Source of the DNA: a phage
DNA: 64,000 nucleotides
Direction: 5' to 3' (one strand)
NCBI GenBank assembly: GCA_023732985.1
Contig: GCA_023732985.1_3946.1
Numbering within the stretch: the stretch's first letter is position 1; each line of letters begins with the position of its first letter. The position numbers and the translations under genes were made by a program. Below the pieces are notes generated by a model, which did no database searches, was not told the DNA's origin, and worked only from the letters and a program-made list of their open reading frames with translations. Below are positions 38,978-51,567 of the stretch, one piece after another.

Positions 38978-39248
38978 AGAAAAGTGGGAGATTTTACCAT
39001 TAGTCAGTGAAGGAGGTAATGGTTGTGAAATGTACATGATACGTGGTCATGTTCCAGAGCCAATTGCACTTGAGATGGTAAACAACTTTACAGATGGTTC
39101 TTACAAAGACTTAGGCGAACCAACTGTCAAGCAACAATGGGTTAAACCTGTACCAGACAGCACAGGTAACTGTAGTGTACTTTATCACGTTGTAGACCCT
39201 GCAAAATGCAAATCTGCAATGGCAGTAACAAACGTAACTTTTGATTGA
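38970..39248 (+). CDS. hypothetical protein
   Basis: 92 aa ORF. Confidence 0.3.
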   Translation: MAKEKWEILPLVSEGGNGCEMYMIRGHVPEPIALEMVNNFTDGSYKDLGEPTVKQQWVKPVPDSTGNCSVLYHVVDPAKCKSAMAVTNVTFD

Positions 39249-40141
39249 GAGAGAAAACTATGAAAACATCTATCCGTGTTACAGTTCATTCACCAACTAA
39301 AGGAACTCATGAAGAAGAGTTTAACATCATCCAATTTCCTTCTGGTGAGATTGGTGGACACTTTTCGCCAGAGTTTGTTGATTTCACTGCTTATGCAGCA
39401 TCATCCATCAACAATGTGATTATGGTTGTAAAAGGCTATGATAAGGATACATTGTTTGCTGTGGCACTTGCTAAAGAAGCAATTGATGATTTAATTCCTC
39501 ATGATTATGCTTTAAAAACTGTCATCTTTTACTACTTACCAAATGCACGTTATGACCGTCACATGTTTAAAGGCGACGCAGCAGCTTTAAAGGTTTTTGC
39601 TAAACAGGTAAATGCAATGGGATTTGGTGCAGTCTGTGCAGTTGACCCTCACAGCTATGTACCAGATAACCTGTTTAACTGCTTCCAGAGTATTCCTCAA
39701 AAGGAAATTGCAGTCCACTATGCAAATGACCCACTGATTGATTACTTAGTAGCCCCAGATGCAGGTGCTGCTAAGAAGATTGCAGAGACTGCTAAAGATG
39801 TGGATAAACCATATATCACAATGTCTAAAGTACGCAACCTTAAGACTGGTGAAATTACTGGTATGCGAATCCTTGATGATGTTGATTTGACAGATAAAAC
39901 CGTCATGATTCTGGATGATATCTGTGATGGTGGTCGAACCTTCATAGAAGCAGCTAAACATCTTCGTGAAGCAGGTGCAAAACGTGTGGAACTCTATGTA
40001 ACACACGGTATCTTCTCTAAAGATGTTGAAAACCTTCTTGACAATGGCATTGACCACATCTACACTACAAACTCTTTAGGGGAAGCTAAAGACCGTGGCT
40101 TAACACATTATGGTCAAGTTACTGTAGCAAACCTTGATTGA
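39245..40141 (+). CDS. ribose-phosphate pyrophosphokinase family protein (PRPP synthetase or ADPR-PP synthetase-like)
   Basis: PRTase-type motif VMILDDICDGGRTF and Prs-like C-terminal half; immediately upstream of NAMPT-like gene. Confidence 0.7.
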   Translation: MREKTMKTSIRVTVHSPTKGTHEEEFNIIQFPSGEIGGHFSPEFVDFTAYAASSINNVIMVVKGYDKDTLFAVALAKEAIDDLIPHDYALKTVIFYYLPNARYDRHMFKGDAAALKVFAKQVNAMGFGAVCAVDPHSYVPDNLFNCFQSIPQKEIAVHYANDPLIDYLVAPDAGAAKKIAETAKDVDKPYITMSKVRNLKTGEITGMRILDDVDLTDKTVMILDDICDGGRTFIEAAKHLREAGAKRVELYVTHGIFSKDVENLLDNGIDHIYTTNSLGEAKDRGLTHYGQVTVANLD

Positions 40142-40150
40142 AACTTTATA

Positions 40151-40171
40151 GGGGCTTAAAAGCCCCATTTT
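40151..40171 (+). terminator. intrinsic terminator candidate
   Basis: GGGGCTTAAAAGCCCC followed by ATTTTG. Confidence 0.45.
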
Positions 40172-40186
40172 GAGAGAGATTAAAAG

Positions 40187-41968
40187 ATGACTAAATCACT
40201 TTATGCAGTACCAGCAGGTTTAAACGCAGATGCTTACAAATCTGGTCATGTTTACCAGTACCCTAGTGCAACAGAGTACTTGATGTTCAACCTGACACCA
40301 CGTAGTGACAAATGGTTTAACAGCCCCTTAGCAATTGATGGTGTAGTAGCTTTTGGTATTCAACGTTTCGTTAAAGATTACTTGATAGACCACTGGAACG
40401 CCACTTTCTTTGAACGTGATAAAAAAGAAGCCATTGATGAAATCTTAGAAGTCATGAATGGTGTTCTGGGTAAAGATGCTATCGGTCGAGAGCATTGGGA
40501 AGCACTTCACGACTTAGGTTATCTACCAGTTGAAGTATACGCTGTAGAAGAAGGTACAGTTGTTCCTATGCGTGTACCAATGATTGTCTTCCAGAACACT
40601 GTTTCAGGTTTCCATTGGGTAGCGGGATATCTGGAAGATGCTTTCTCTGCTGAGATTTGGAAGGCTTGTACCATTGCAACTATTGCATTGCATTATAAAC
40701 GCATCTGTAAGAAGTGGGCTGACCTTACTTGCGACAATGACTTACATTTACCTTATCAGTGCCATGACTTTGCTATGCGTGGTATGTCCGGCTTTACTGA
40801 TGACGCATTTAACGCTGTAGGCCACTTAACCAGCTTTAAAGGGACTGATAGCTTCCCTGCTGTATATACAGCTAAACGCATCTACGGACAGTCTTACCCA
40901 GTCTCTGATATTGGTGGTTCTGTACCAGCCACTGAACACTCTGTAATGTGTGCAAACATTGCTTGGGAAGGTGGTAATGAGTTGGTTGAAGAAGAAAGAC
41001 GCTTTAAAGGTGAGTTGCAAACCTTCCGTCGCTTCTTAACAGAAACTTATCCAACTGGTATTGCAAGTGTTGTTTCAGACACTTATAACTTCTGGAGAAC
41101 TGTGTCAGAAATCTTACCAGCACTCCGTAAAGAAATTATGGAACGTGATGGCAAACTGGTAATTCGTCCTGACTCTGGAGACCCTGTACACATTGTCACA
41201 GGTTATAAAGCAATCCACTTAGAGTGTGCTAAAAAGGCTTATTATGAGCACCTAAGCAAGCTGGAAGCCAGTGACACAATGTTGAATGCTGTTCTGAACA
41301 TGAAGCTTGAAAACATCAACTATGGTATTGCTGGATGGCTACTGTCAGAAGGCTACGAAATGGTTGTTGACAGAGAAGACTTTGAAGCTGCTGATACGGT
41401 GATGTTGAAGAATGCTTATATGGTTGGCTCTGCAAATGTTGTAACACGTCCTGTAGCTGAGATTGATGGAGCTATTAAGACACTGTACAACATCTTTGGG
41501 GGAACTATCAACTCTAAAGGCTTTAAGGTACTGGATGAGCACATTGGACTTATCTATGGTGACTCTATCACGTTGGAACGTGCAAACGAAATCCTGAAGC
41601 GCCTGTACGAAATGGGTTTTGCAAGCTCTAACGTAGTGTTTGGTGTAGGTTCTTACACTTACCAGTACATGACTCGTGACACATTTGCATTTGCTGTCAA
41701 AGCAACTCTTGCAAGCATTGGTGGTAAAGAGATTATGCTTGCAAAAGACCCTAAAACAGATAGTGGTATTAAGAAGTCTGCTTTTGGTGGTGTAGCCCCT
41801 ATGTGGGATGGTGAGAATTTGAAAGCTGTAGATGGCTATGGATTCCAGAGCTTTGCAGATGCACTTGAACATCCAGCTTGTGCTTTACGTTTAGTCTTTA
41901 GCGACTCTGAGCAGTACGGTTACACAACTCTTGGTGATATTCGAAATAATATTGACAAGCAGCTTTAA
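40187..41968 (+). CDS. nicotinamide phosphoribosyltransferase family protein (NAMPT/NadV or Namat-like)
   Basis: Motifs SFKGTDS, VVSDTYNFW, IRPDSGDP that I recall as NAMPT signatures. Confidence 0.75.
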   Translation: MTKSLYAVPAGLNADAYKSGHVYQYPSATEYLMFNLTPRSDKWFNSPLAIDGVVAFGIQRFVKDYLIDHWNATFFERDKKEAIDEILEVMNGVLGKDAIGREHWEALHDLGYLPVEVYAVEEGTVVPMRVPMIVFQNTVSGFHWVAGYLEDAFSAEIWKACTIATIALHYKRICKKWADLTCDNDLHLPYQCHDFAMRGMSGFTDDAFNAVGHLTSFKGTDSFPAVYTAKRIYGQSYPVSDIGGSVPATEHSVMCANIAWEGGNELVEEERRFKGELQTFRRFLTETYPTGIASVVSDTYNFWRTVSEILPALRKEIMERDGKLVIRPDSGDPVHIVTGYKAIHLECAKKAYYEHLSKLEASDTMLNAVLNMKLENINYGIAGWLLSEGYEMVVDREDFEAADTVMLKNAYMVGSANVVTRPVAEIDGAIKTLYNIFGGTINSKGFKVLDEHIGLIYGDSITLERANEILKRLYEMGFASSNVVFGVGSYTYQYMTRDTFAFAVKATLASIGGKEIMLAKDPKTDSGIKKSAFGGVAPMWDGENLKAVDGYGFQSFADALEHPACALRLVFSDSEQYGYTTLGDIRNNIDKQL

Positions 41969-42893: not shown

Positions 42894-45260
42894 ATGCGCA
42901 TGGTAAATGACCACGCAGAAGTGATTAAGAGTTCAACTTCTTTAGAGACGTCTCAAGCACAGATTACAATGACACCTGAGATGTTCAGCCTTTTGAGTTC
43001 TGGTGTATATACCTTTAAAGAAAGGGCAGTGATTCGTGAACTGTCATGTAACGCAGTAGATGCTCAGAAAGAAGCTGGAAAAGAGAACATCCCGTTCCAT
43101 GTGCATTTACCTACTCGTTTTGAGCCTTACTTTGAAGTTCGTGATTTTGGAACTGGATTGACTCATGATAAAGTTATGAGTTTGTACCTAAACTACGGGG
43201 CTTCTACGAAGAATGACTCTAATGACTACATTGGTGCAATGGGTATCGGCTCAAAATCACCATTTGCAATTGCTCAGTCATTCACAGTGTCTAGCTATGT
43301 TGATGGTGTTGTTAATAAGTACTCTGTTTATCTTGAGAATGGTATCCCTCAAGTAACTAAGCTGACCACTAACCCAACAAAAGAACCTAATGGTTTAGCT
43401 GTACGTGTGGCAGTTGCTGACCACCGTATCTCAAAGTTCTTTGAAGAAGCTGGAAATGTGTACTCATACTTCACTGTAAAACCAGAAAGTAATATTGAGT
43501 ACGACGATGTATTAGCAGACATGAACGTCATTGCCCGTGAAGAAGGTGTTTACGATGCCATGATTCATAAGCAAAGCTGGCGTTCTAGTGGTAACAGGAC
43601 AGAGTTTAATGTGGTGATGGGTAATATTGCCTATCCAGTGAACATGGAAGCATTACTTGGTGATGATTTCTTCAAAGTCTTGCCAGAGTTTTTCCGTAGG
43701 AGCGTAGACCTTGTAAACATCTACATGCCTATTGGTTCAGTTGCTATAGCAGCTTCTCGTGAAGCATTGCAGATGAATGATACGACAAAAAATGTTATCA
43801 TTGAGGCTACCAAAAAGATAACTGAAGCAATTACAAAGGATGTTATCAAGAAAGTTAATAGCCAACCTACACTCATGGATGCTGCACAGGCTTATGCAGA
43901 GCTACGTTTGAACTCACGAGAGATGTTTAATGCTGTGTGTCCAAAGCTAGAGTGGGGAGGCATTAAGCTTGATTCTCTGGAAGAAGAATTGTTAAACATT
44001 CGTCGTGGAATTATCTACGCAGAAGACGGCTCAGTCATTTATGAACGTGACGGTAAAGGCAATATTAAGGTTGATAGGAACGGGAACAATATCCCTAAAG
44101 TAGATTATCTTTATGACCCAGTTGCTTATGTCAAGTTCAACTCTTTAGAGAGTAAGATTCGTGCAACAGCACTTTCCTACACTCAAGAGGCAAGCATGTT
44201 CAATATCTTTGGTGCAATGCGTAAAAGCCAAATTGAACAGTTTTTGTTCGTGATTAATGACCGTCGCAATAAAAATGGTACTGAGAAGACTGTAGGACGC
44301 AATCAAATTTTGCGTGGTGCATGTCGAGACTACGCCAGTGAGTCAAATCTGTTTCACAGATACAATGGTATTGTCTTTGTATTCTCGACTGAAAAAGAGT
44401 TAGATGATTTAATCAATCTACACAAACTTGATAAAAGCTTGTTAAAGATTGTGAAGATGTCTGATAAGGAACATCACTATCAGCGTAAAGAAGCTGTAAG
44501 AGGTGTTGTAAAACTCTGGAAAGCTGTTCCAGCAGAAGGTGTAGCTTCCTATAAAGAGGTTTCAGAGGACTTAGATACGATTGAAGAGCCTCAGCTTTAT
44601 ATTAAGGCAGTAGGCGACACAGTTGATGGCGAATGTTTTTGCTCATCTCCAGAAGATGTAGCTAAGTCAGTTGCCAATGTCATTGGAAAGAAAGTATATG
44701 TTTTCCGAAAAGCAAATTGGAAAAAGATACCAGAAGACTGGATTGAAGTAGATGAGAAGCTCTTGAACGACAGCTTAACTGATGTTCATTGGATTAACCA
44801 TAACAGGTATATGACACGCATCTACATGGATGGTGTCCTCGACCTTACAAGCAGTTGGATTATTGCCAGAAACTTTACGTTCAATAACAGGAAGATTTCT
44901 CGCGGGTATTGTTATTCAAGGGATACTATTAAGACAATCTTCTTAGAAGGGAATGAAGATGCTGTTGAGGCAATGTTCGGTAAGATTCAGTATGTGGCTG
45001 CACCGTTTGCATACACTTACACTATCAGTGTTCTTCAGGATTTGAAGTCATGCCTTGATAATGACACAAAACTGTACAAAAAGATTAAAAAAGCAGGTGA
45101 CCGCATGGTCATTAAGCTGACAAACTATCTTTCAAAAAGAAAACAAGAAAACTTCTTGCTTTCACACTTAGATTGGAATAAAGTGTCACCCATCGAAGTG
45201 AGTAAGTTCTTAGGCTTTGATGTGAAGTGTGTTCCAGAAGGGACTACAATTTACGATTAA
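42894..45260 (+). CDS. rIIA: rIIA-like protein (GHKL-ATPase-like N-terminus)
   Basis: N-terminal ELSCNAVDA and DFGTGL resemble GHKL ATPase N and G1 boxes as in T4 rIIA; large size; followed by rIIB-sized gene. Confidence 0.65.
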   Translation: MRMVNDHAEVIKSSTSLETSQAQITMTPEMFSLLSSGVYTFKERAVIRELSCNAVDAQKEAGKENIPFHVHLPTRFEPYFEVRDFGTGLTHDKVMSLYLNYGASTKNDSNDYIGAMGIGSKSPFAIAQSFTVSSYVDGVVNKYSVYLENGIPQVTKLTTNPTKEPNGLAVRVAVADHRISKFFEEAGNVYSYFTVKPESNIEYDDVLADMNVIAREEGVYDAMIHKQSWRSSGNRTEFNVVMGNIAYPVNMEALLGDDFFKVLPEFFRRSVDLVNIYMPIGSVAIAASREALQMNDTTKNVIIEATKKITEAITKDVIKKVNSQPTLMDAAQAYAELRLNSREMFNAVCPKLEWGGIKLDSLEEELLNIRRGIIYAEDGSVIYERDGKGNIKVDRNGNNIPKVDYLYDPVAYVKFNSLESKIRATALSYTQEASMFNIFGAMRKSQIEQFLFVINDRRNKNGTEKTVGRNQILRGACRDYASESNLFHRYNGIVFVFSTEKELDDLINLHKLDKSLLKIVKMSDKEHHYQRKEAVRGVVKLWKAVPAEGVASYKEVSEDLDTIEEPQLYIKAVGDTVDGECFCSSPEDVAKSVANVIGKKVYVFRKANWKKIPEDWIEVDEKLLNDSLTDVHWINHNRYMTRIYMDGVLDLTSSWIIARNFTFNNRKISRGYCYSRDTIKTIFLEGNEDAVEAMFGKIQYVAAPFAYTYTISVLQDLKSCLDNDTKLYKKIKKAGDRMVIKLTNYLSKRKQENFLLSHLDWNKVSPIEVSKFLGFDVKCVPEGTTIYD

Positions 45261-45339: not shown

Positions 45340-46449
45340 ATGACTACTAAAACTAAAGCACAGATTGACGCAGAAATTTACAAACTGGTTAAAGAAGGTA
45401 AGCTGACTAAAACAGCTATTGCACAGAAATTTAATACTTCAACCCGTTCAGTTGGTCGTGCTGTAGAGCGTCATGAAGCAACCTTAAAAGGGAATAAGAA
45501 GGCGACTTCTACACCAGCTACGAAAACTTTGAAGCAAGTTGCTAAGACCTTTAAGAAGAAAGCTGGCAAACCAGTTGAAAAGGCTGTTAAAGAGTCTGTA
45601 CAGAAAGTTCCGGTAAATAAACTGCACGAAGCTATGCAGAAAGATGACAAGATTGAGTACATGATTACTGGTGATTCTGTAATTATGACTTATGGTTCAG
45701 AATCTGAAATTGTTGAGTCTACTCATCCGAACTATCAAGAGATTGTAGTTCATGTTGTGAAAGGTGAGTTCAAGAAAGCATTTGAACTGATGAACATTCG
45801 TAAGTCTATCGAAAACTTCACTCAGGGTGCTATCACAATCAAAGGCGACAAGCTATTCTACGGTGCTGTTGAGATGCGTTCTACTCTGGTTGACCGTATT
45901 CTTCACATGATGAAAACTGGCGATAAAGGTTTTGAACGACTTGTAATGTTCTTCGAAAAACTGATGGAAAACCCATCTAAAGATTCTGTAGAACAACTTT
46001 GGGGATTTGTATCTCACCTTGATGTTGAAATTGATGAAGAAGGCTACATCATTGGTTGGAAGAAAGTCTCTACTCGTGAAGGCAAGCTGGTTGACTCTCA
46101 CACCTACAAAGTGCCTAATGATTTGGGTAACATTGTAGAAATGCCACGTTGGATGGTTGATAATAACCGTAACGTAACTTGCTCTCAAGGTCTTCATGTT
46201 GGTGCTTGGGATTATGTTCGTTGCTTCTCAGGTGATACAATCCTGAAGGTTCGCGTACATCCACGAGATGTTGTATCTGTTCCAACTGATTACAATGATA
46301 TGAAGATGCGTTCCTCTCGTTATGAAGTTGCAGCAATCGTTGATAATCAACGTAAAGTGCTGGAAGCATGGGACGGTAAGACTGAAGCTTTGCATGTCAT
46401 CGTTGGCACTGCTGGTGAACTCATCTCTCAACGTAAACGTGAAATCTAA
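45340..46449 (+). CDS. putative rIIB-like protein
   Basis: Position after rIIA-like gene; no diagnostic motif. Confidence 0.35.
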   Translation: MTTKTKAQIDAEIYKLVKEGKLTKTAIAQKFNTSTRSVGRAVERHEATLKGNKKATSTPATKTLKQVAKTFKKKAGKPVEKAVKESVQKVPVNKLHEAMQKDDKIEYMITGDSVIMTYGSESEIVESTHPNYQEIVVHVVKGEFKKAFELMNIRKSIENFTQGAITIKGDKLFYGAVEMRSTLVDRILHMMKTGDKGFERLVMFFEKLMENPSKDSVEQLWGFVSHLDVEIDEEGYIIGWKKVSTREGKLVDSHTYKVPNDLGNIVEMPRWMVDNNRNVTCSQGLHVGAWDYVRCFSGDTILKVRVHPRDVVSVPTDYNDMKMRSSRYEVAAIVDNQRKVLEAWDGKTEALHVIVGTAGELISQRKREI

Positions 46450-46549: not shown

Positions 46550-47098
46550 ATGAAGAAATTGATTCTAGGTTTGTGCTTAATGTTTACAGCACACTTATCT
46601 TATGCAGTTGACTGCCCAGAGCTATCAATTAGCCAAAAAGTAAACATGTTAAAAGCTTACCAGTATGGTGAGAATAACATGGGTAAAGGTTGGGGTATCA
46701 CTCTAGCAGCTATAGCCTTACAAGAGTCAGAGTTAGGTCTGAAGGTAGAAAATAAAAAGACCCATGACTACGGTATCTTCCAGAATCACTTGAAGACTGT
46801 TGTAAAGCGTAACAAAATTAGTCCTAATGTTGCTAAAAAGAAACTCTTAAAAGATTTTGACTATGCCGCAAAAGAAACACATAAAGAGCTTGAGTTTTGG
46901 ACGAAGGTGCATGGTCACCCAAAGTCGAAGAAGACTTTACAAAAAGTTTTAGCATCATATAATGCTGGGTATTCGTACAGAATCCCTAAAGCTAAGAAAT
47001 ATTCTCAAGATGTCTATAACAACATGAAAGTTATTGCTCAATGTGAATTTGCAACAAACATTTCTAAGGTAAACCATGAAAAAATTAAAAAAGTCTGA
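46550..47098 (+). CDS. putative secreted lytic transglycosylase-like protein
   Basis: Signal peptide MKKLILGLCLMFTAHLSYA; AIALQESELG ... YGIFQ resembles SLT-domain ES...GLMQ motifs. Confidence 0.4.
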   Translation: MKKLILGLCLMFTAHLSYAVDCPELSISQKVNMLKAYQYGENNMGKGWGITLAAIALQESELGLKVENKKTHDYGIFQNHLKTVVKRNKISPNVAKKKLLKDFDYAAKETHKELEFWTKVHGHPKSKKTLQKVLASYNAGYSYRIPKAKKYSQDVYNNMKVIAQCEFATNISKVNHEKIKKV

Positions 47099-47771
47099 TG
47101 AAGTCCTGTGCCACGCTTATGACTTACATCCTCATGAGTTAGGTCTTGATTCCTGTGTATGGACTCCAGAACAGTGTAGGGATTTTGAAGACACTGCAAG
47201 AGAAGTTGTATGTTCACTGGAAGAGTTCCACACATCAGAACCAATTGTGAACGTTGTGGACAAAGAGACTGGACAAACTATAGGTGTAAGGCGCGATAGT
47301 TTAGTCATAGTCAATAAAGACCTTGTAGAAAAAGGTAACCTCATCTTAGCAGATATTGATGGTGTTCTTACAAATTTTAATCACGAAGATTGCTCAACGG
47401 AATTGACTGATGGGTCATTCTCACAGTACACTAATCTTCTTGATTCTGTAAGAGCAAAGCCAACATATGTTTTCAACATTATTGATGCAATTGCAAATCA
47501 TGCAGCAGTTGGACTCTTGACAGCAAGAGGTGAATCTCAGAGAATACCTACTGAGATGTTTTTAAGGCACAATATAGAGCATGATTACTTGCTTTTTATG
47601 CGTGGTTTTGGAACTAACTCTATAAGTGCAGAAAGTTTGAAAGTAAGGATGATTCAGTCTTGCATTCTTCCTTATTTTAATATAGTATGCTTTATAGAAG
47701 ATACAGAGAAGAATGTTCAGAAGGTAAACAGAATCCTTCCACACATTAAAACCATGTTAGTTAAACATTGA
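47076..47771 (+). CDS. putative HAD-family hydrolase
   Basis: LILADIDGVLTNF resembles HAD motif I (DxDG[TV]); weak. Confidence 0.3.
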   Translation: MKKLKKSDEVLCHAYDLHPHELGLDSCVWTPEQCRDFEDTAREVVCSLEEFHTSEPIVNVVDKETGQTIGVRRDSLVIVNKDLVEKGNLILADIDGVLTNFNHEDCSTELTDGSFSQYTNLLDSVRAKPTYVFNIIDAIANHAAVGLLTARGESQRIPTEMFLRHNIEHDYLLFMRGFGTNSISAESLKVRMIQSCILPYFNIVCFIEDTEKNVQKVNRILPHIKTMLVKH

Positions 47772-48807: not shown

Positions 48808-49079
48808 TGACACAAAGTAATGATGAAACTTTCTACACAGAAGGTTACTTACTTCTACCGAGACCGAAAGATACTTACATGAGGATTGATTTCTTACCTA
48901 CGATTATGGATAATGTAATGTGTCACATCTTTATGCAAGGTATCACAGCACAGCTTAAGCATGTTGGTAAAGAGTGCAAAATAAAGGTTGACACTCATCC
49001 AGAAATCAAAGAGAATCACTACACATGGTTCCTACCAGACTCTAAAGAAATCTTAGCAGTTCTTAAAACGAGGAAATGA
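48807..49079 (+). CDS. hypothetical protein
   Basis: 90 aa ORF. Confidence 0.3.
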   Translation: MTQSNDETFYTEGYLLLPRPKDTYMRIDFLPTIMDNVMCHIFMQGITAQLKHVGKECKIKVDTHPEIKENHYTWFLPDSKEILAVLKTRK

Positions 49080-49390
49080 TTATGCAATTCCAGCCAACAA
49101 ATCGTGGATTTTCTTATGCAGAATTTAAAGATGCTAAAGGGGAAATTTGTACTTTACAAGAGAGTTCATCATACGAACCATGTATCTGGTTAGGTGCTAA
49201 AGAGGTCTCTGTTCAGTACCTAGATAATGGCTGGAAAACACTTGATATCCCAGCATTAGTTGGTAAAGATTTTGTAGGTAATCAAAGGATGAAGCTCAAT
49301 CAAGAACAGGTAAAAGAGTTGTTGCCGTACCTTCAATACTTTGCTGAAAATGGTGAATTACCAACAGAGGAACTTACAAATGCAGATTAA
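49076..49390 (+). CDS. hypothetical protein
   Basis: 104 aa ORF. Confidence 0.3.
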   Translation: MIMQFQPTNRGFSYAEFKDAKGEICTLQESSSYEPCIWLGAKEVSVQYLDNGWKTLDIPALVGKDFVGNQRMKLNQEQVKELLPYLQYFAENGELPTEELTNAD

Positions 49391-49703
49391 TGGAAGAGAC
49401 TTTGTAGCCGTTTACTACGAGAAAGGTAAAGAAGTTGGCGTAGCGCAAGTATCTTATGGCAATGGTGGGTGGCTATATGGAACAATCGCAGTAGTTGGAA
49501 CGAGAAGTGATACAAAAACTTTTAAAGATTGTGTTGACCTTCTTGAAGAATCCATTCAGAATCATTGGTGTCTGATATGGATGACTGACAACGAAGTGAT
49601 AGAACGCTTCAAAAAGATTGATATCAACATTGATAGTATTGAGCATGTTGATTTATATGAGCTAACTGAGAAGGTAAATTATGAAGGCTCTAGAGGTAAT
49701 TGA
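49341..49703 (+). CDS. hypothetical protein
   Basis: 120 aa ORF. Confidence 0.3.
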   Translation: MLKMVNYQQRNLQMQINGRDFVAVYYEKGKEVGVAQVSYGNGGWLYGTIAVVGTRSDTKTFKDCVDLLEESIQNHWCLIWMTDNEVIERFKKIDINIDSIEHVDLYELTEKVNYEGSRGN

Positions 49704-49908
49704 TAAAGACACTGGAGAAGTTACATCAGCATGTGTTTTCGTTAGTAACGACACAGTGATACCGTTTTACAATCTCGATAGTTTTAGTTTTACAGGGATA
49801 ACTCCAGAAGAATACTTTGAAGACCTTACCTTTGCCAGAATTTCTATAGATACATTCTATAAATGCTTCTGTGATGAAGGTAAAGAATTACGAGAAACTG
49901 AACTATAA
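49681..49908 (+). CDS. hypothetical protein
   Basis: 75 aa ORF. Confidence 0.3.
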   Translation: MKALEVIDKDTGEVTSACVFVSNDTVIPFYNLDSFSFTGITPEEYFEDLTFARISIDTFYKCFCDEGKELRETEL

Positions 49909-49920
49909 GGTGTATATTGT

Positions 49921-50121
49921 ATGGCTGACTTCTGCAAAGACTGTTCTATAGAAATGTTTGGACGTGATACAGGTGACTTAAAAGGTCTTATCACTGAAGA
50001 TGACTTTAAAGCTGGCTATGCAATGCCAGTAATCTGTGAAGGTTGTGGATGTATCTGGGTAGACCACGAAGGACAACGTGTAAAACCTTCAGAAGACAAA
50101 GAATCTTGGGAGAGATGTTAA
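49921..50121 (+). CDS. hypothetical zinc-finger protein
   Basis: CKDCS ... CEGCGC cysteine pairs. Confidence 0.35.
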   Translation: MADFCKDCSIEMFGRDTGDLKGLITEDDFKAGYAMPVICEGCGCIWVDHEGQRVKPSEDKESWERC

Positions 50122-50901
50122 ATGGGTATTGTAAAAGTTGTGAAAGGTAACTTACTAGCTGCCTTCAAAAACACAGACATTGAGTTAATTGCTCATGGTT
50201 GCAACTGCCGTAACCTCATGGGTGCTGGAATCGCTCAAAAAATTGCTAAGATTTTCCCAAAAGCTGAAGAAGCTGACCGGAAATTCCATAAAAAGTTTGG
50301 CTACAGCGCTCATGATATCGGATACCAGATGGTTGGTGAGGTGTCACATGCTCGAACGGAGTATGGTTACATTTTTAACCTATATACACAGTTGGATGTT
50401 GGGAAGTGTGCATCATACCGATACTTAGTGGAGTCACTAGAAAAACTCCGTAAATTTTGCTGGATGCACAACATTCGTAAGATTGGTTTACCCATGATTG
50501 GTGCAGGTATCGGTGGCTTAGACGCACAAGCTGTGAAAAGCCTCATTAATAGCGTTATGTACAACGTTGATGTGTACCTATACGTCTATGATGAAGCAAT
50601 GGCAACTGTAGTTACCCCTAAGTATGCCACCTCAGCACCACAATTCTATGATGGTGTCGTGCTAAGTGACGGTAAATCTAACCATGTTACCCTCTATCAG
50701 CTTGTTGATGGTAAGGTCGAGGCTAGTTACCCTCTGGTTAGTGAGATGGGTATGTGTAATAGTGAAATGTTCTCAATTGACCCATTTGGTAGATACGAAG
50801 GGGTGTTCTTTGATAACTACCCAGCAGCATACATCTACACAACAAATCAGGATGAAGTTCACTACTTGCTGTATTCTAAAAAGTTCAAATTCATAAACTG
50901 A
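50122..50901 (+). CDS. macro-domain (ADP-ribose binding / hydrolase-like) protein
   Basis: IAHGCNCRNLMGAGIAQKIAKIFP and IGLPMIGAGIGGLD resemble the two glycine-rich macro-domain signature segments; ~100 aa C-terminal extension. Confidence 0.55.
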   Translation: MGIVKVVKGNLLAAFKNTDIELIAHGCNCRNLMGAGIAQKIAKIFPKAEEADRKFHKKFGYSAHDIGYQMVGEVSHARTEYGYIFNLYTQLDVGKCASYRYLVESLEKLRKFCWMHNIRKIGLPMIGAGIGGLDAQAVKSLINSVMYNVDVYLYVYDEAMATVVTPKYATSAPQFYDGVVLSDGKSNHVTLYQLVDGKVEASYPLVSEMGMCNSEMFSIDPFGRYEGVFFDNYPAAYIYTTNQDEVHYLLYSKKFKFIN

Positions 50902-50980
50902 TTAGTGCTTCACAGCACCTATAATTAATCTAAAAAGGCCGCCTAACCCATTGAAAAATTTAAGGTAAGGTGGTCTTTTT

Positions 50981-51123
50981 CATTTTCAATTTGTGCAGGT
51001 AGCTGTATAGGTCTGCACAGGTGTCTCAAAAAATCTCATCGCCGGATAGAAAAATCATTTTCAAAACGTGCAGACCCCGCTCAGGTCGGGCAAGAAAAAT
51101 CATTTTAGAATCGTGCAGGTAGG
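50981..51123 (+). repeat. three tandem copies of (AAAAAT)CATTTT-N2-AA-N2-GTGCAG motif
   Basis: Copies at 50981-51000 (with GCTGTATAGG, matching 46497-46520), 51051-51077 and 51095-51123. Confidence 0.5.
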
Positions 51124-51145: not shown

Positions 51146-51176
51146 CCCCTCTCCCCCTCTTACTCCCCCTCTCCCC
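51146..51176. other. polypyrimidine tract CCCCTCTCCCCCTCTTACTCCCCCTCTCCCC (G-quadruplex motif on minus strand)
   Basis: Four C-runs of 4-5 separated by 3-7 nt in a ~39% GC genome. Confidence 0.5.
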
Positions 51177-51297
51177 AAAAGTCAAGAGAAAAATTTGTAG
51201 TGGATTGAAAAATAATTCTTGATTTGTGTTTTGTTTTGTGGTAGTCGTGCGCGCCCGTTCATTTCCCAACCTTACAAAAAATATTTAATAAAAACCG

Positions 51298-51326
51298 TTG
51301 ACACGCCAAACAAGTTTACGTACTAT
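51298..51326 (+). promoter_or_regulatory. sigma70-like promoter (TTGACA-17-TACTAT) at head of cassette array
   Basis: -35 TTGACA 51298-51303, 17 bp spacer, -10 TACTAT 51321-51326, AT-rich upstream tract. Confidence 0.5.
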
Positions 51327-51375: not shown

Positions 51376-51567
51376 ATGGCATCAAGAAAAATCAAAGTCG
51401 GTGATGAGGTTAACGTTAAGTATGAGCACTCTCATAAAATGTTAACTATTCGCTCTTACAAGGTTTATCAGGTGGAAGCTATCCACGAAGACGGTACATT
51501 TTCCCTAAAAGGACATAGCGAACGTTTCCCTGCTGAATTGTTCGAAAAATGGAGTACTAAAAAATGA
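51376..51567 (+). CDS. hypothetical small protein, cassette array ORF 1
   Basis: ORF preceded by conserved CCTAAACTGGAGAATCTAAAAATG initiation region. Confidence 0.45.
   Translation: MASRKIKVGDEVNVKYEHSHKMLTIRSYKVYQVEAIHEDGTFSLKGHSERFPAELFEKWSTKK

What the first reader, a model, noticed from the sequence alone, without database searches (positions are those of the whole stretch)
50122..50901. Macro-domain protein with C-terminal extension
The N-terminal ~160 aa carry both glycine-rich signature segments of macro domains (IAHGCNCRNLMGAGIAQKIAKIFP and IGLPMIGAGIGGLD), which bind or hydrolyse ADP-ribose derivatives. A phage macro domain could reverse ADP-ribosylation-based host defences or process ADP-ribose products, which fits with the NAD+-related pair at 39-42 kb. 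The ~100 aa C-terminal extension has no recognisable motif.
Basis: partly seen in the sequence, partly recalled or inferred. Interest (0 to 1): 0.6.

Follow-up and report, generated by a model that had tools for sequence, protein, structure and literature searches.

The report
Phage macrodomain enzyme with orphan tail domain
This early gene of a Felix O1-like phage encodes an ADP-ribose-removing macrodomain related to phage T4's anti-DarT factor, most likely used to strip a host defence mark off phage DNA; only its extra 100-residue tail domain, which resembles nothing known, is new.

Summary
ORF 50122..50901 (+) encodes a 259-aa protein. Residues 1-156 are a real macrodomain: Pfam Macro scores above its cut-off, the AlphaFold model has pLDDT 92, and the best structural matches are the DarG and TARG1 macrodomains. 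The window is a Felixounavirus, and the gene closes an early operon downstream of rIIA/rIIB.

The protein belongs to PHROG 335, annotated 'phosphatase'. Phage T4 Tk.4 is in the same PHROG (33% identity). A 2025 preprint showed that Tk.4 is needed for T4 to resist the DarTG2 defence system and named it AdfM.

The catalytic lysine of DarG and TARG1 is replaced here by an invariant glutamine, Q90, in an NLYTQ motif. T4 Tk.4 has the same glutamine, and so does Streptomyces SCO6735, a proven hydrolase of thymidine-linked ADP-ribose on DNA.

My best reading is a counter-defence enzyme that removes ADP-ribose from nucleic acid. This rests on homology and is untested for this protein.

The C-terminal domain (residues 157-259) folds confidently and is under purifying selection. 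It has no detectable sequence or structural relatives outside these phage proteins, and its role is unknown.

The gene is also a divergence island: the syntenic gene in phage Bas63 is 40% identical while its flanks are 88-98% identical.

Overall this is a new member of a known kind, of modest interest.

The parts
50108..50114 (+). Shine-Dalgarno-like GGGAGAG, 7 nt before the ATG. The start codon abuts the TAA of upstream ORF 49921-50121, which suggests translational coupling.
   Evidence: Sequence read directly; ORF map.
50122..50901 (+). Complete coding sequence of the two-domain protein, 259 aa plus stop.
   Evidence: PHROG 335 matches over the full length at E 1.9e-84. The same gene is annotated 'phosphatase', 'macro domain' or 'O-acetyl-ADP-ribose deacetylase' in related Felixounavirus records.
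50122..50589 (+). Macrodomain, residues 1-156, of the ALC1-like class (TARG1, DarG, SCO6735, Poa1p).
   Evidence: Pfam Macro E 6e-7. NCBIfam DarG E 1.3e-15 and PADLOC DarG E 1.5e-16, both covering the macro part only. PDB sequence hits to TARG1, DarG, Poa1p and SCO6735. Foldseek top hits 5m31, 4j5s and 5m3i.
50188..50259 (+). Loop-1 signature, residues 23-46 (IAHGCNCRNLMGAGIAQKIAKIFP). H25 and N28 are invariant. N28 aligns with DarG N22 and PhiKZ AdfM N23. H25 aligns with Poa1p H23.
   Evidence: Alignments A1, A2, A4 and A5; Poa1p alignment; active-site residues as given in PMC13309987.
50377..50391 (+). NLYTQ motif, residues 86-90. Q90 occupies the position of TARG1 K84, DarG K80 and SCO6735 Q85. 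It is invariant across the family, including T4 Tk.4.
   Evidence: Alignments A2, A4 and A5. The SCO6735 Q85A mutant is inactive (PMC9411070).
50482..50523 (+). Loop-2 diphosphate-binding signature, residues 121-134 (IGLPMIGAGIGGLD). G131 sits where TARG1 has D125; DarG also has glycine there.
   Evidence: P124, G127, G129, I130 and G132 are invariant.
50590..50898 (+). C-terminal domain, residues 157-259: a linker helix (158-167), six beta strands and a C-terminal helix. The P173-x3-D-G178 motif is the only conserved sequence feature. The fold is an orphan.
50932..50980 (+). Terminator-like hairpin with a U-run immediately downstream of the stop codon, which would close the transcription unit.
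   Evidence: RNA fold gives -26.9 kcal/mol, z = -5.9 against shuffles; sequence.

Best explanation
This is an early-expressed counter-defence enzyme of a Felix O1-like phage. The N-terminal macrodomain binds the ADP-ribose moiety through its two glycine-rich loops. It then hydrolyses the bond between the distal ribose and a modified base. The most likely substrate is thymidine in single-stranded phage DNA that has been ADP-ribosylated by host DarT2-type toxins, so the enzyme would restore replication. Catalysis would follow the glutamine-type mechanism described for SCO6735, in which Q90 positions the distal ribose and an activated water, rather than the lysine mechanism of DarG and TARG1. The C-terminal domain is a lineage-specific accessory module fused to this enzyme. 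I infer that it helps to find the substrate or a partner, such as ssDNA, the replisome or the toxin itself. What is shown: the fold, family membership, conservation of active-site residues, early-operon position and purifying selection. What is inferred: the substrate, the counter-defence role and any role of the C-terminal domain.
For: Macro fold and ALC1-like class. DarG is the best match in NCBIfam and PADLOC. The protein shares PHROG 335 with T4 Tk.4; identity is 33% at pairwise E 6e-23, with shared HGCNC, NLYTQ and IGAGIG motifs. In the T4 transposon library, tk.4 was the only significant hit for growth on DarTG2, and a clean deletion sensitised T4; the authors named it AdfM. A separate phage macrodomain, PhiKZ gp104, removes DarT2-made ADP-ribose from DNA in vitro. 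Q90 aligns with SCO6735 Q85. SCO6735 cleaves thymidine-linked ADP-ribose on DNA and needs Q85 for activity, so the missing lysine does not argue against activity. N28, which aligns with DarG N22, is invariant. The gene lies in the early region after rIIA/rIIB, is translationally coupled to the upstream ORF and is followed by a terminator-like hairpin. It is present at the same position in about 257 phage records; those listed are genomes of about 85-89 kb. The locus is a sharp divergence island, as is common for counter-defence genes.
Against: No experiment exists for any Felixounavirus copy; literature searches found none. For T4 Tk.4 the evidence is genetic only, and enzymatic removal was described as 'likely'. 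Identity to Tk.4 is only 33%, and this protein carries an extra domain that Tk.4 lacks. The N-terminal third is most similar to yeast Poa1p, an ADP-ribose-1''-phosphate phosphatase, and macrodomains of this class also act on proteins and small molecules. The C-terminal domain is not consistently basic across alleles (net charge -6 to +4), which does not favour a simple DNA-binding role.
Confidence: 0.5

Rival explanations
1. It is a small-molecule ADP-ribose metabolite enzyme, matching the database label 'phosphatase'. It would act as a Poa1p-like ADP-ribose-1''-phosphate phosphatase or an O-acetyl-ADP-ribose deacetylase. Its job would be to clear by-products of RNA repair or NAD+ consumption and feed ADP-ribose back towards the phage's NAD+ salvage genes.
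For: The best single-sequence match for residues 4-60 is Poa1p (E 1.6e-5), with a shared H-x-C-N-C motif that includes the residue equivalent to Poa1p H23. The T4 Tk.4 record notes an 'A1pp phosphatase motif'. A polynucleotide kinase homologue lies about 3 kb upstream, and PRPP-synthetase-like and NAMPT genes lie 8-10 kb upstream.
Against: The 'phosphatase' label is motif-derived and untested. The only phenotype known for a family member (T4 Tk.4) is DarTG2 resistance. The Q-type active site matches SCO6735, a DNA de-ADP-ribosylase. The NAD+ genes are not adjacent, and they are absent from the T4 tk.4 neighbourhood.
Confidence: 0.15
2. It is an eraser of protein or RNA ADP-ribosylation rather than DNA ADP-ribosylation. 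It could counter host toxins such as the mRNA ADP-ribosyltransferase CmdT or protein-targeting ARTs, or it could tune a phage-encoded ART.
For: Enzymes of this class, such as TARG1 and SCO6735, also cleave protein-linked ADP-ribose. RNA-targeting ART defences exist (the CmdTAC paper is listed). The protein's early expression fits any counter-defence role.
Against: No ART is annotated in the 69 kb of Bas63 that I inspected, although most of its genes are hypothetical. The closest characterised relative has a DarTG2 phenotype. There is no direct evidence for either substrate.
Confidence: 0.2
3. It is a non-catalytic ADP-ribose reader or sponge. The macrodomain would only bind ADP-ribose, ADP-ribosylated targets or ADP-ribose-derived signals, and the C-terminal domain would provide the effector or tethering function.
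For: The lysine and aspartate used by TARG1 are both absent, replaced by Q90 and G131. Some database records call the protein a 'high-affinity ADP-ribose binding module'.
Against: The same Q is essential for catalysis in SCO6735. H25, N28 and Q90 are strictly conserved across the family, which suggests catalysis. DarG also lacks the aspartate.
Confidence: 0.07

Closest known systems
Phage T4 Tk.4 (NP_049723.1), named AdfM, an anti-DarT factor macrodomain (bioRxiv 10.1101/2025.11.20.689424)
   Same: Same PHROG 335. Identity is 33% over 159 residues at E 6e-23. The signature motifs HGCNC, NLYTQ (glutamine rather than lysine) and IGAGIG are identical. Both are early phage genes.
   Different: Tk.4 is 155 aa and has only the macrodomain. 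The window protein adds a 103-aa C-terminal domain, which is unrelated to the downstream T4 gene tk.3. The genomic neighbourhoods differ.
Streptomyces coelicolor SCO6735 (PDB 5E3B) and Bacteroides BT1257 (2FG1), glutamine-type ALC1-like macrodomains
   Same: Same fold class, with an N-x3-Q motif in which Q85 aligns with Q90. SCO6735 hydrolyses thymidine-linked ADP-ribose on DNA and neutralises DarT.
   Different: Identity is only about 22-23%. SCO6735 has a longer lysine-bearing mobile loop after the Q (A5; mobile loop as described). Both are cellular single-domain proteins.
DarG antitoxin of DarTG2 (Thermus aquaticus 5M31/5M3E, M. tuberculosis 5M3I) and PhiKZ gp104 AdfM (PMC13309987)
   Same: These are the best structural matches and the best NCBIfam and PADLOC family. 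The asparagine equivalent to N22/N23 is conserved. DarG, like this protein, is a macrodomain followed by a second domain.
Human TARG1/OARD1 (4J5R) and yeast Poa1p (6LFQ)
   Same: Both give significant sequence and fold matches. The H-x-C-N-C motif is shared with Poa1p.
   Different: The TARG1 K84/D125 dyad is absent. Poa1p is a phosphatase acting on a small molecule. Both are single-domain eukaryotic proteins.

Membership tests
Macro domain superfamily (Pfam PF01661) | HMM score above the curated gathering threshold | tested here: met
   29.8 bits against a cut-off of 22, residues 25-140; 31.5 bits for the isolated N-terminal part.
Macro domain superfamily (Pfam PF01661) | Three-layer alpha/beta macro fold with two glycine-rich ADP-ribose-binding loops | tested here: met
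   AF2 model pLDDT 92.4. Foldseek gives E 2.7e-10 to 5m31 with target TM-scores of 0.82-0.86. The loops lie at residues 33-38 and 126-133.
Tk.4/AdfM-type phage macrodomains (PHROG 335) | Profile membership together with T4 Tk.4, and shared HGCNC / NLYTQ / IGAGIG motifs | tested here: met
   phrog_335 E 1.9e-84 for this protein and 1.2e-65 for RB32 Tk.4, a T4-type copy that differs from T4 Tk.4 at two of 155 residues (sequences). Motifs are seen.
Tk.4/AdfM-type phage macrodomains (PHROG 335) | Protects the phage from DarTG2 (loss of the gene sensitises the phage) | not testable with these tools
   Shown only for T4 tk.4. No data exist for any Felixounavirus.
Tk.4/AdfM-type phage macrodomains (PHROG 335) | Hydrolysis of thymidine-linked ADP-ribose on ssDNA | not testable with these tools
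   Demonstrated for PhiKZ gp104, DarG, TARG1 and SCO6735, but not for T4 Tk.4 or this protein.
DarG antitoxin (NCBIfam NF048014, PADLOC DarG) | Full-length equivalog score | tested here: not met
   57.6 bits against a cut-off of 250. Only profile positions 2-153 of 338 are matched.
DarG antitoxin (NCBIfam NF048014, PADLOC DarG) | Catalytic lysine (Thermus aquaticus K80) in the macrodomain | tested here: not met
   The aligned residue is Q90, invariant in the family.
DarG antitoxin (NCBIfam NF048014, PADLOC DarG) | C-terminal DarT-binding domain and an adjacent darT gene | tested here: not met
   The C-terminal domain has no match to the DarG profile or to any PDB fold. The neighbouring ORFs are 63-126 aa and belong to unknown-function PHROGs.
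TARG1-type hydrolases | Catalytic K84/D125 dyad | tested here: not met
   K84 aligns with Q90 and D125 with G131.
Glutamine-type ALC1-like macrodomains (SCO6735/BT1257) | Gln at the K84/K80 position within an N-x3-Q motif | tested here: met
   NLYTQ aligns with NMIGQ, in which the Q is SCO6735 Q85 (residue numbering checked).
Glutamine-type ALC1-like macrodomains (SCO6735/BT1257) | Extended lysine-bearing mobile loop after the Gln (K89/K93) | tested here: not met
   The loop is 5-6 residues shorter in this protein and in T4 Tk.4.
Poa1p-like ADP-ribose-1''-phosphate phosphatases | H-x-C-N-C motif with the histidine equivalent to Poa1p H23 | tested here: met
   HGCNC aligns with HSCNC over residues 4-60 at E 1.6e-5.
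Poa1p-like ADP-ribose-1''-phosphate phosphatases | Appr-1''-p phosphatase activity | not testable with these tools
The 'phosphatase' annotation in phage records is motif-derived.

The most novel reading that the evidence does not exclude
The orphan C-terminal domain is a specificity or inhibitor module. Examples would be a domain that binds the DarT toxin itself, or one that binds ADP-ribosylated ssDNA at the replication fork. That would make this a phage-built functional analogue of two-domain DarG, assembled from an unrelated second domain. The sharply divergent alleles at this locus among Felixounaviruses would then track different host toxin variants.
Probability: 0.15. Interest if true: 0.6.

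Novelty: new member of a known kind. Interest (0 to 1): 0.3.

Why it matters
Phage-encoded erasers of nucleic-acid ADP-ribosylation have only recently been recognised as counter-defences: AdfN in 2025 and AdfM in 2025-2026. If this assignment is confirmed, that strategy would extend to Felix O1-like phages, which are used for Salmonella and E. coli typing and biocontrol, and would help predict their host range on DarTG-carrying strains. The protein would also be a second phage example of the glutamine-type mechanism. The conserved but orphan C-terminal domain and the allelic replacement at this locus offer a tractable way to ask how such erasers gain specificity. For genome annotation, the practical point is that the widespread label 'phosphatase' for this gene family is probably misleading.

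Tried and rejected
- The afdb50 fold search for the C-terminal domain could not be run, because the library was not available.
- The BFVD viral structure library returned only the same family, at E 0.011.
- The C-terminal profile also hit large proteins in several stretches. Those I inspected are PQQ-type beta-propeller repeat proteins. I judge this a resemblance of a beta-hairpin motif (P-x-V-x-DGVV...G-x-V-x-AL), summed over repeats, and not homology.
- I tested whether the C-terminal domain corresponds to a split-off neighbour in T4 (tk.3). hhalign gave a probability of 0.2%, so I rejected the idea.
- No tRNA genes were found in the window, and no Rfam family was found in 48-53 kb.
- The consensus promoter and terminator scan was uninformative for the gene itself.
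- Literature searches for Felix O1 or Felixounavirus together with macro domain or DarTG found nothing usable.
- Positive selection within the window's allele group was not seen; dN/dS stays well below 1 in both domains.
- A simple DNA-binding role for the C-terminal domain is not favoured, because its net charge varies from -6 to +4 between alleles.

Full report
**Observation**

The ORF at 50122..50901 on the + strand is real and encodes 259 aa. Its ATG directly follows the TAA of the upstream ORF (49921-50121) and is preceded by GGGAGAG at 50108-50114.

Several independent searches identify a macrodomain:
- Pfam Macro (PF01661) matches residues 25-140 at 29.8 bits, against a gathering score of 22.
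- A single-sequence search of PDB chains finds TARG1/OARD1 (E 3.7e-8), the DarG macrodomains 5M31 and 5M3I, yeast Poa1p and SCO6735.
- A profile of 35 homologues raises these matches to E 3e-17 for TARG1 and about 1e-15 for DarG.
- An AlphaFold2 model built on that alignment is very confident, with mean pLDDT 92.4 and pTM 0.88.
- The best Foldseek matches in the PDB are the Thermus aquaticus DarG macrodomain, TARG1, M. tuberculosis DarG and Poa1p, with target TM-scores of 0.78-0.86.

The macro assignment is therefore secure.

**Genomic setting**

The window is a Felixounavirus, a Felix O1-like myophage. Megablast finds about 250-275 related phage records, mostly at 88-95% identity.

The gene lies in the early region. 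Upstream are a PRPP-synthetase-like gene (39245-40141), NAMPT (40187-41968), rIIA (42894-45260), rIIB (45340-46449), a polynucleotide-kinase homologue (47076-47771), the spanins and a run of small ORFs of unknown function.

A stable hairpin with a U-run lies at 50932-50980, right after the stop codon (-26.9 kcal/mol, z -5.9). The gene therefore seems to close a transcription unit.

The same synteny (rIIB, PNKP, then macro) is kept in a more distant metagenomic relative.

**Family**

The protein matches PHROG 335 ('phosphatase') over its whole length, at E 1.9e-84. GenBank records call the gene phosphatase, macro domain protein, Poa1p-like ADP-ribose binding module or O-acetyl-ADP-ribose deacetylase.

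A tblastn search finds the macrodomain in 2829 phage records. Only about 257 of them cover the full length, and those listed are genomes of about 85-89 kb. The other records, including T4-like phages, carry a macrodomain of about 155 aa with no extension.

T4 Tk.4 (NP_049723.1) is 33% identical at pairwise E 6e-23. It shares the motifs HGCNC, NLYTQ and IGAGIG. The near-identical RB32 copy of Tk.4 matches the same PHROG at E 1.2e-65.

**What is known about relatives**

- A 2025 preprint screened a T4 transposon library on a DarTG2-expressing host. It found tk.4 as the single significant hit, confirmed that a clean deletion sensitises T4, and named the gene adfM. Enzymatic removal of ADP-ribose from DNA was described as likely but was not shown.
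- Independently, the PhiKZ macrodomain gp104 (also named AdfM) removes DarT2-made ADP-ribose from an oligonucleotide in vitro and rescues DarT2 toxicity. [quoted passage not shown]
- Phage NADAR proteins (AdfN) do the same job against DarTG1.

**Active site**

Alignments with sequences recovered from PDB matches show the following:
- N28 aligns with DarG N22.
- The lysine of DarG (K80), TARG1 (K84) and PhiKZ AdfM (K78) is replaced by Q90.
- TARG1 D125 is replaced by G131, as it is in DarG.

Q90 and the surrounding NLYTQ motif are conserved across all 35 homologues, and T4 Tk.4 has the same motif.

This does not make the domain inactive. SCO6735 has Gln85 at exactly this position; I verified the numbering from the 5E3B chain. 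SCO6735 cleaves thymidine-linked ADP-ribose from DNA efficiently, neutralises DarT, and loses all activity on Q85A. Its authors proposed a water-mediated mechanism.

The window protein therefore belongs to the glutamine-type branch of the ALC1-like macrodomains. It lacks the longer lysine-bearing loop of SCO6735.

**C-terminal domain**

Residues 157-259 have no Pfam or PADLOC match. Their only sequence match is the part of PHROG 335 contributed by the long forms.

All 21 long homologues carry the domain. Its sequence diverges much faster than the macrodomain: 9-27% identity to the window protein between allele groups, against 41-53% for the macro part. Only P173 and G178 are invariant.

The domain folds confidently both in the full-length model and alone. 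It consists of six strands and a terminal helix, with pLDDT above 90 for most residues.

Searches for relatives of the domain found nothing outside the family:
- BFVD returns only a member of the same family.
- A profile search of 1.84 billion representative proteins finds only macro-fused relatives and two fragments. It also gives weak multi-repeat matches to PQQ-propeller proteins, which I regard as motif resemblance.
- The domain is unrelated to T4 Tk.3.

Among six phages that carry this allele, dN/dS is 0.00-0.07 for the macro part and mostly 0.07-0.17 for the C-terminal part. So the C-terminal part is a constrained, functional domain, but under looser constraint than the macrodomain. Its net charge varies from -6 to +4 between alleles, which does not suggest a simple DNA-binding role. 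Its function remains unknown.

**Divergence island**

In phage Bas63 the syntenic gene (bas63_0095) is only 40% identical. The immediately upstream gene is 98.5% identical, and the other flanking genes are 88-98% identical. The window's allele occurs in only 13 phage records. This pattern of allelic replacement fits a gene involved in host-phage conflict, but it does not prove such a role.

**Conclusion**

The most likely function is removal of ADP-ribose from nucleic acid as a counter-defence against DarT2-type toxins, by a glutamine-type mechanism. I put this at about 0.5, because it rests on homology to one genetically characterised phage protein and one biochemically characterised bacterial enzyme.

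The rivals cannot be excluded computationally. They are small-molecule processing (the database label 'phosphatase'), protein or RNA de-ADP-ribosylation, and a non-catalytic reader.

The link to the NAD+ salvage pair is loose. Both are early genes, but they are not adjacent, and the T4 tk.4 neighbourhood has no such genes.

The family is known and widely annotated, so this is a new member of a known kind. The orphan C-terminal domain and the allelic diversity are the only parts that go beyond the known.

Noticed in passing
window 50122-50901, compared with L003 13817-14602 (phage Bas63): The macro gene is a sharp divergence island. It is 40% identical at the protein level to the syntenic Bas63 gene, while the upstream neighbour is 98.5% identical and the other flanking genes 88-98%. 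The window's allele is found in only 13 phage records.
   Followed up: partly
window 49681-49908, 49076-49390 and 51376-51567: Other small early ORFs near the macro gene are also replaced or absent in Bas63. ORF 49681-49908 is only 31% identical, and the other two have no tblastn counterpart in that locus. This suggests a mosaic early region.
   Followed up: no
window 50932-50980: A stable hairpin, flanked by an A-run and a U-run, lies directly after the macro gene's stop codon (-26.9 kcal/mol, z -5.9 against shuffles). It looks like an intrinsic terminator, possibly bidirectional. The simple terminator scan missed it.
   Followed up: partly
window 50979-51119 and 51298-51326: Three direct repeats of ATCATTTTnnAAnnGTGCAGr lie at 50979, 51054 and 51099; four matches were found in the window against 0.09 expected. 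They sit in the 474-nt gap after the macro gene. A TTGACA-17-TACTAT promoter-like site follows, ahead of the next ORF. The repeats may be regulatory sites.
   Followed up: no
window about 51146-51178: An unusual C-rich tract (CCCCTCTCCCCCTCTTACTCCCCCTCTCCCC) lies in the same intergenic region. In Bas63 this gap carries two small reverse-strand ORFs.
   Followed up: no
window 39245-41968: The PRPP-synthetase-like and NAMPT genes are confirmed by Pfam. The synthetase-like protein is only 78% identical to its Bas63 counterpart, against 97% for NAMPT. rIIB (82%) is likewise much more divergent than rIIA (98%).
   Followed up: partly
protein P0017: A 279-aa macro plus C-terminal-domain homologue from an 87-kb contig is named 'Listeria phage LPML1' by its source. 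That host label is odd for a Felix O1-like gene set.
   Followed up: no
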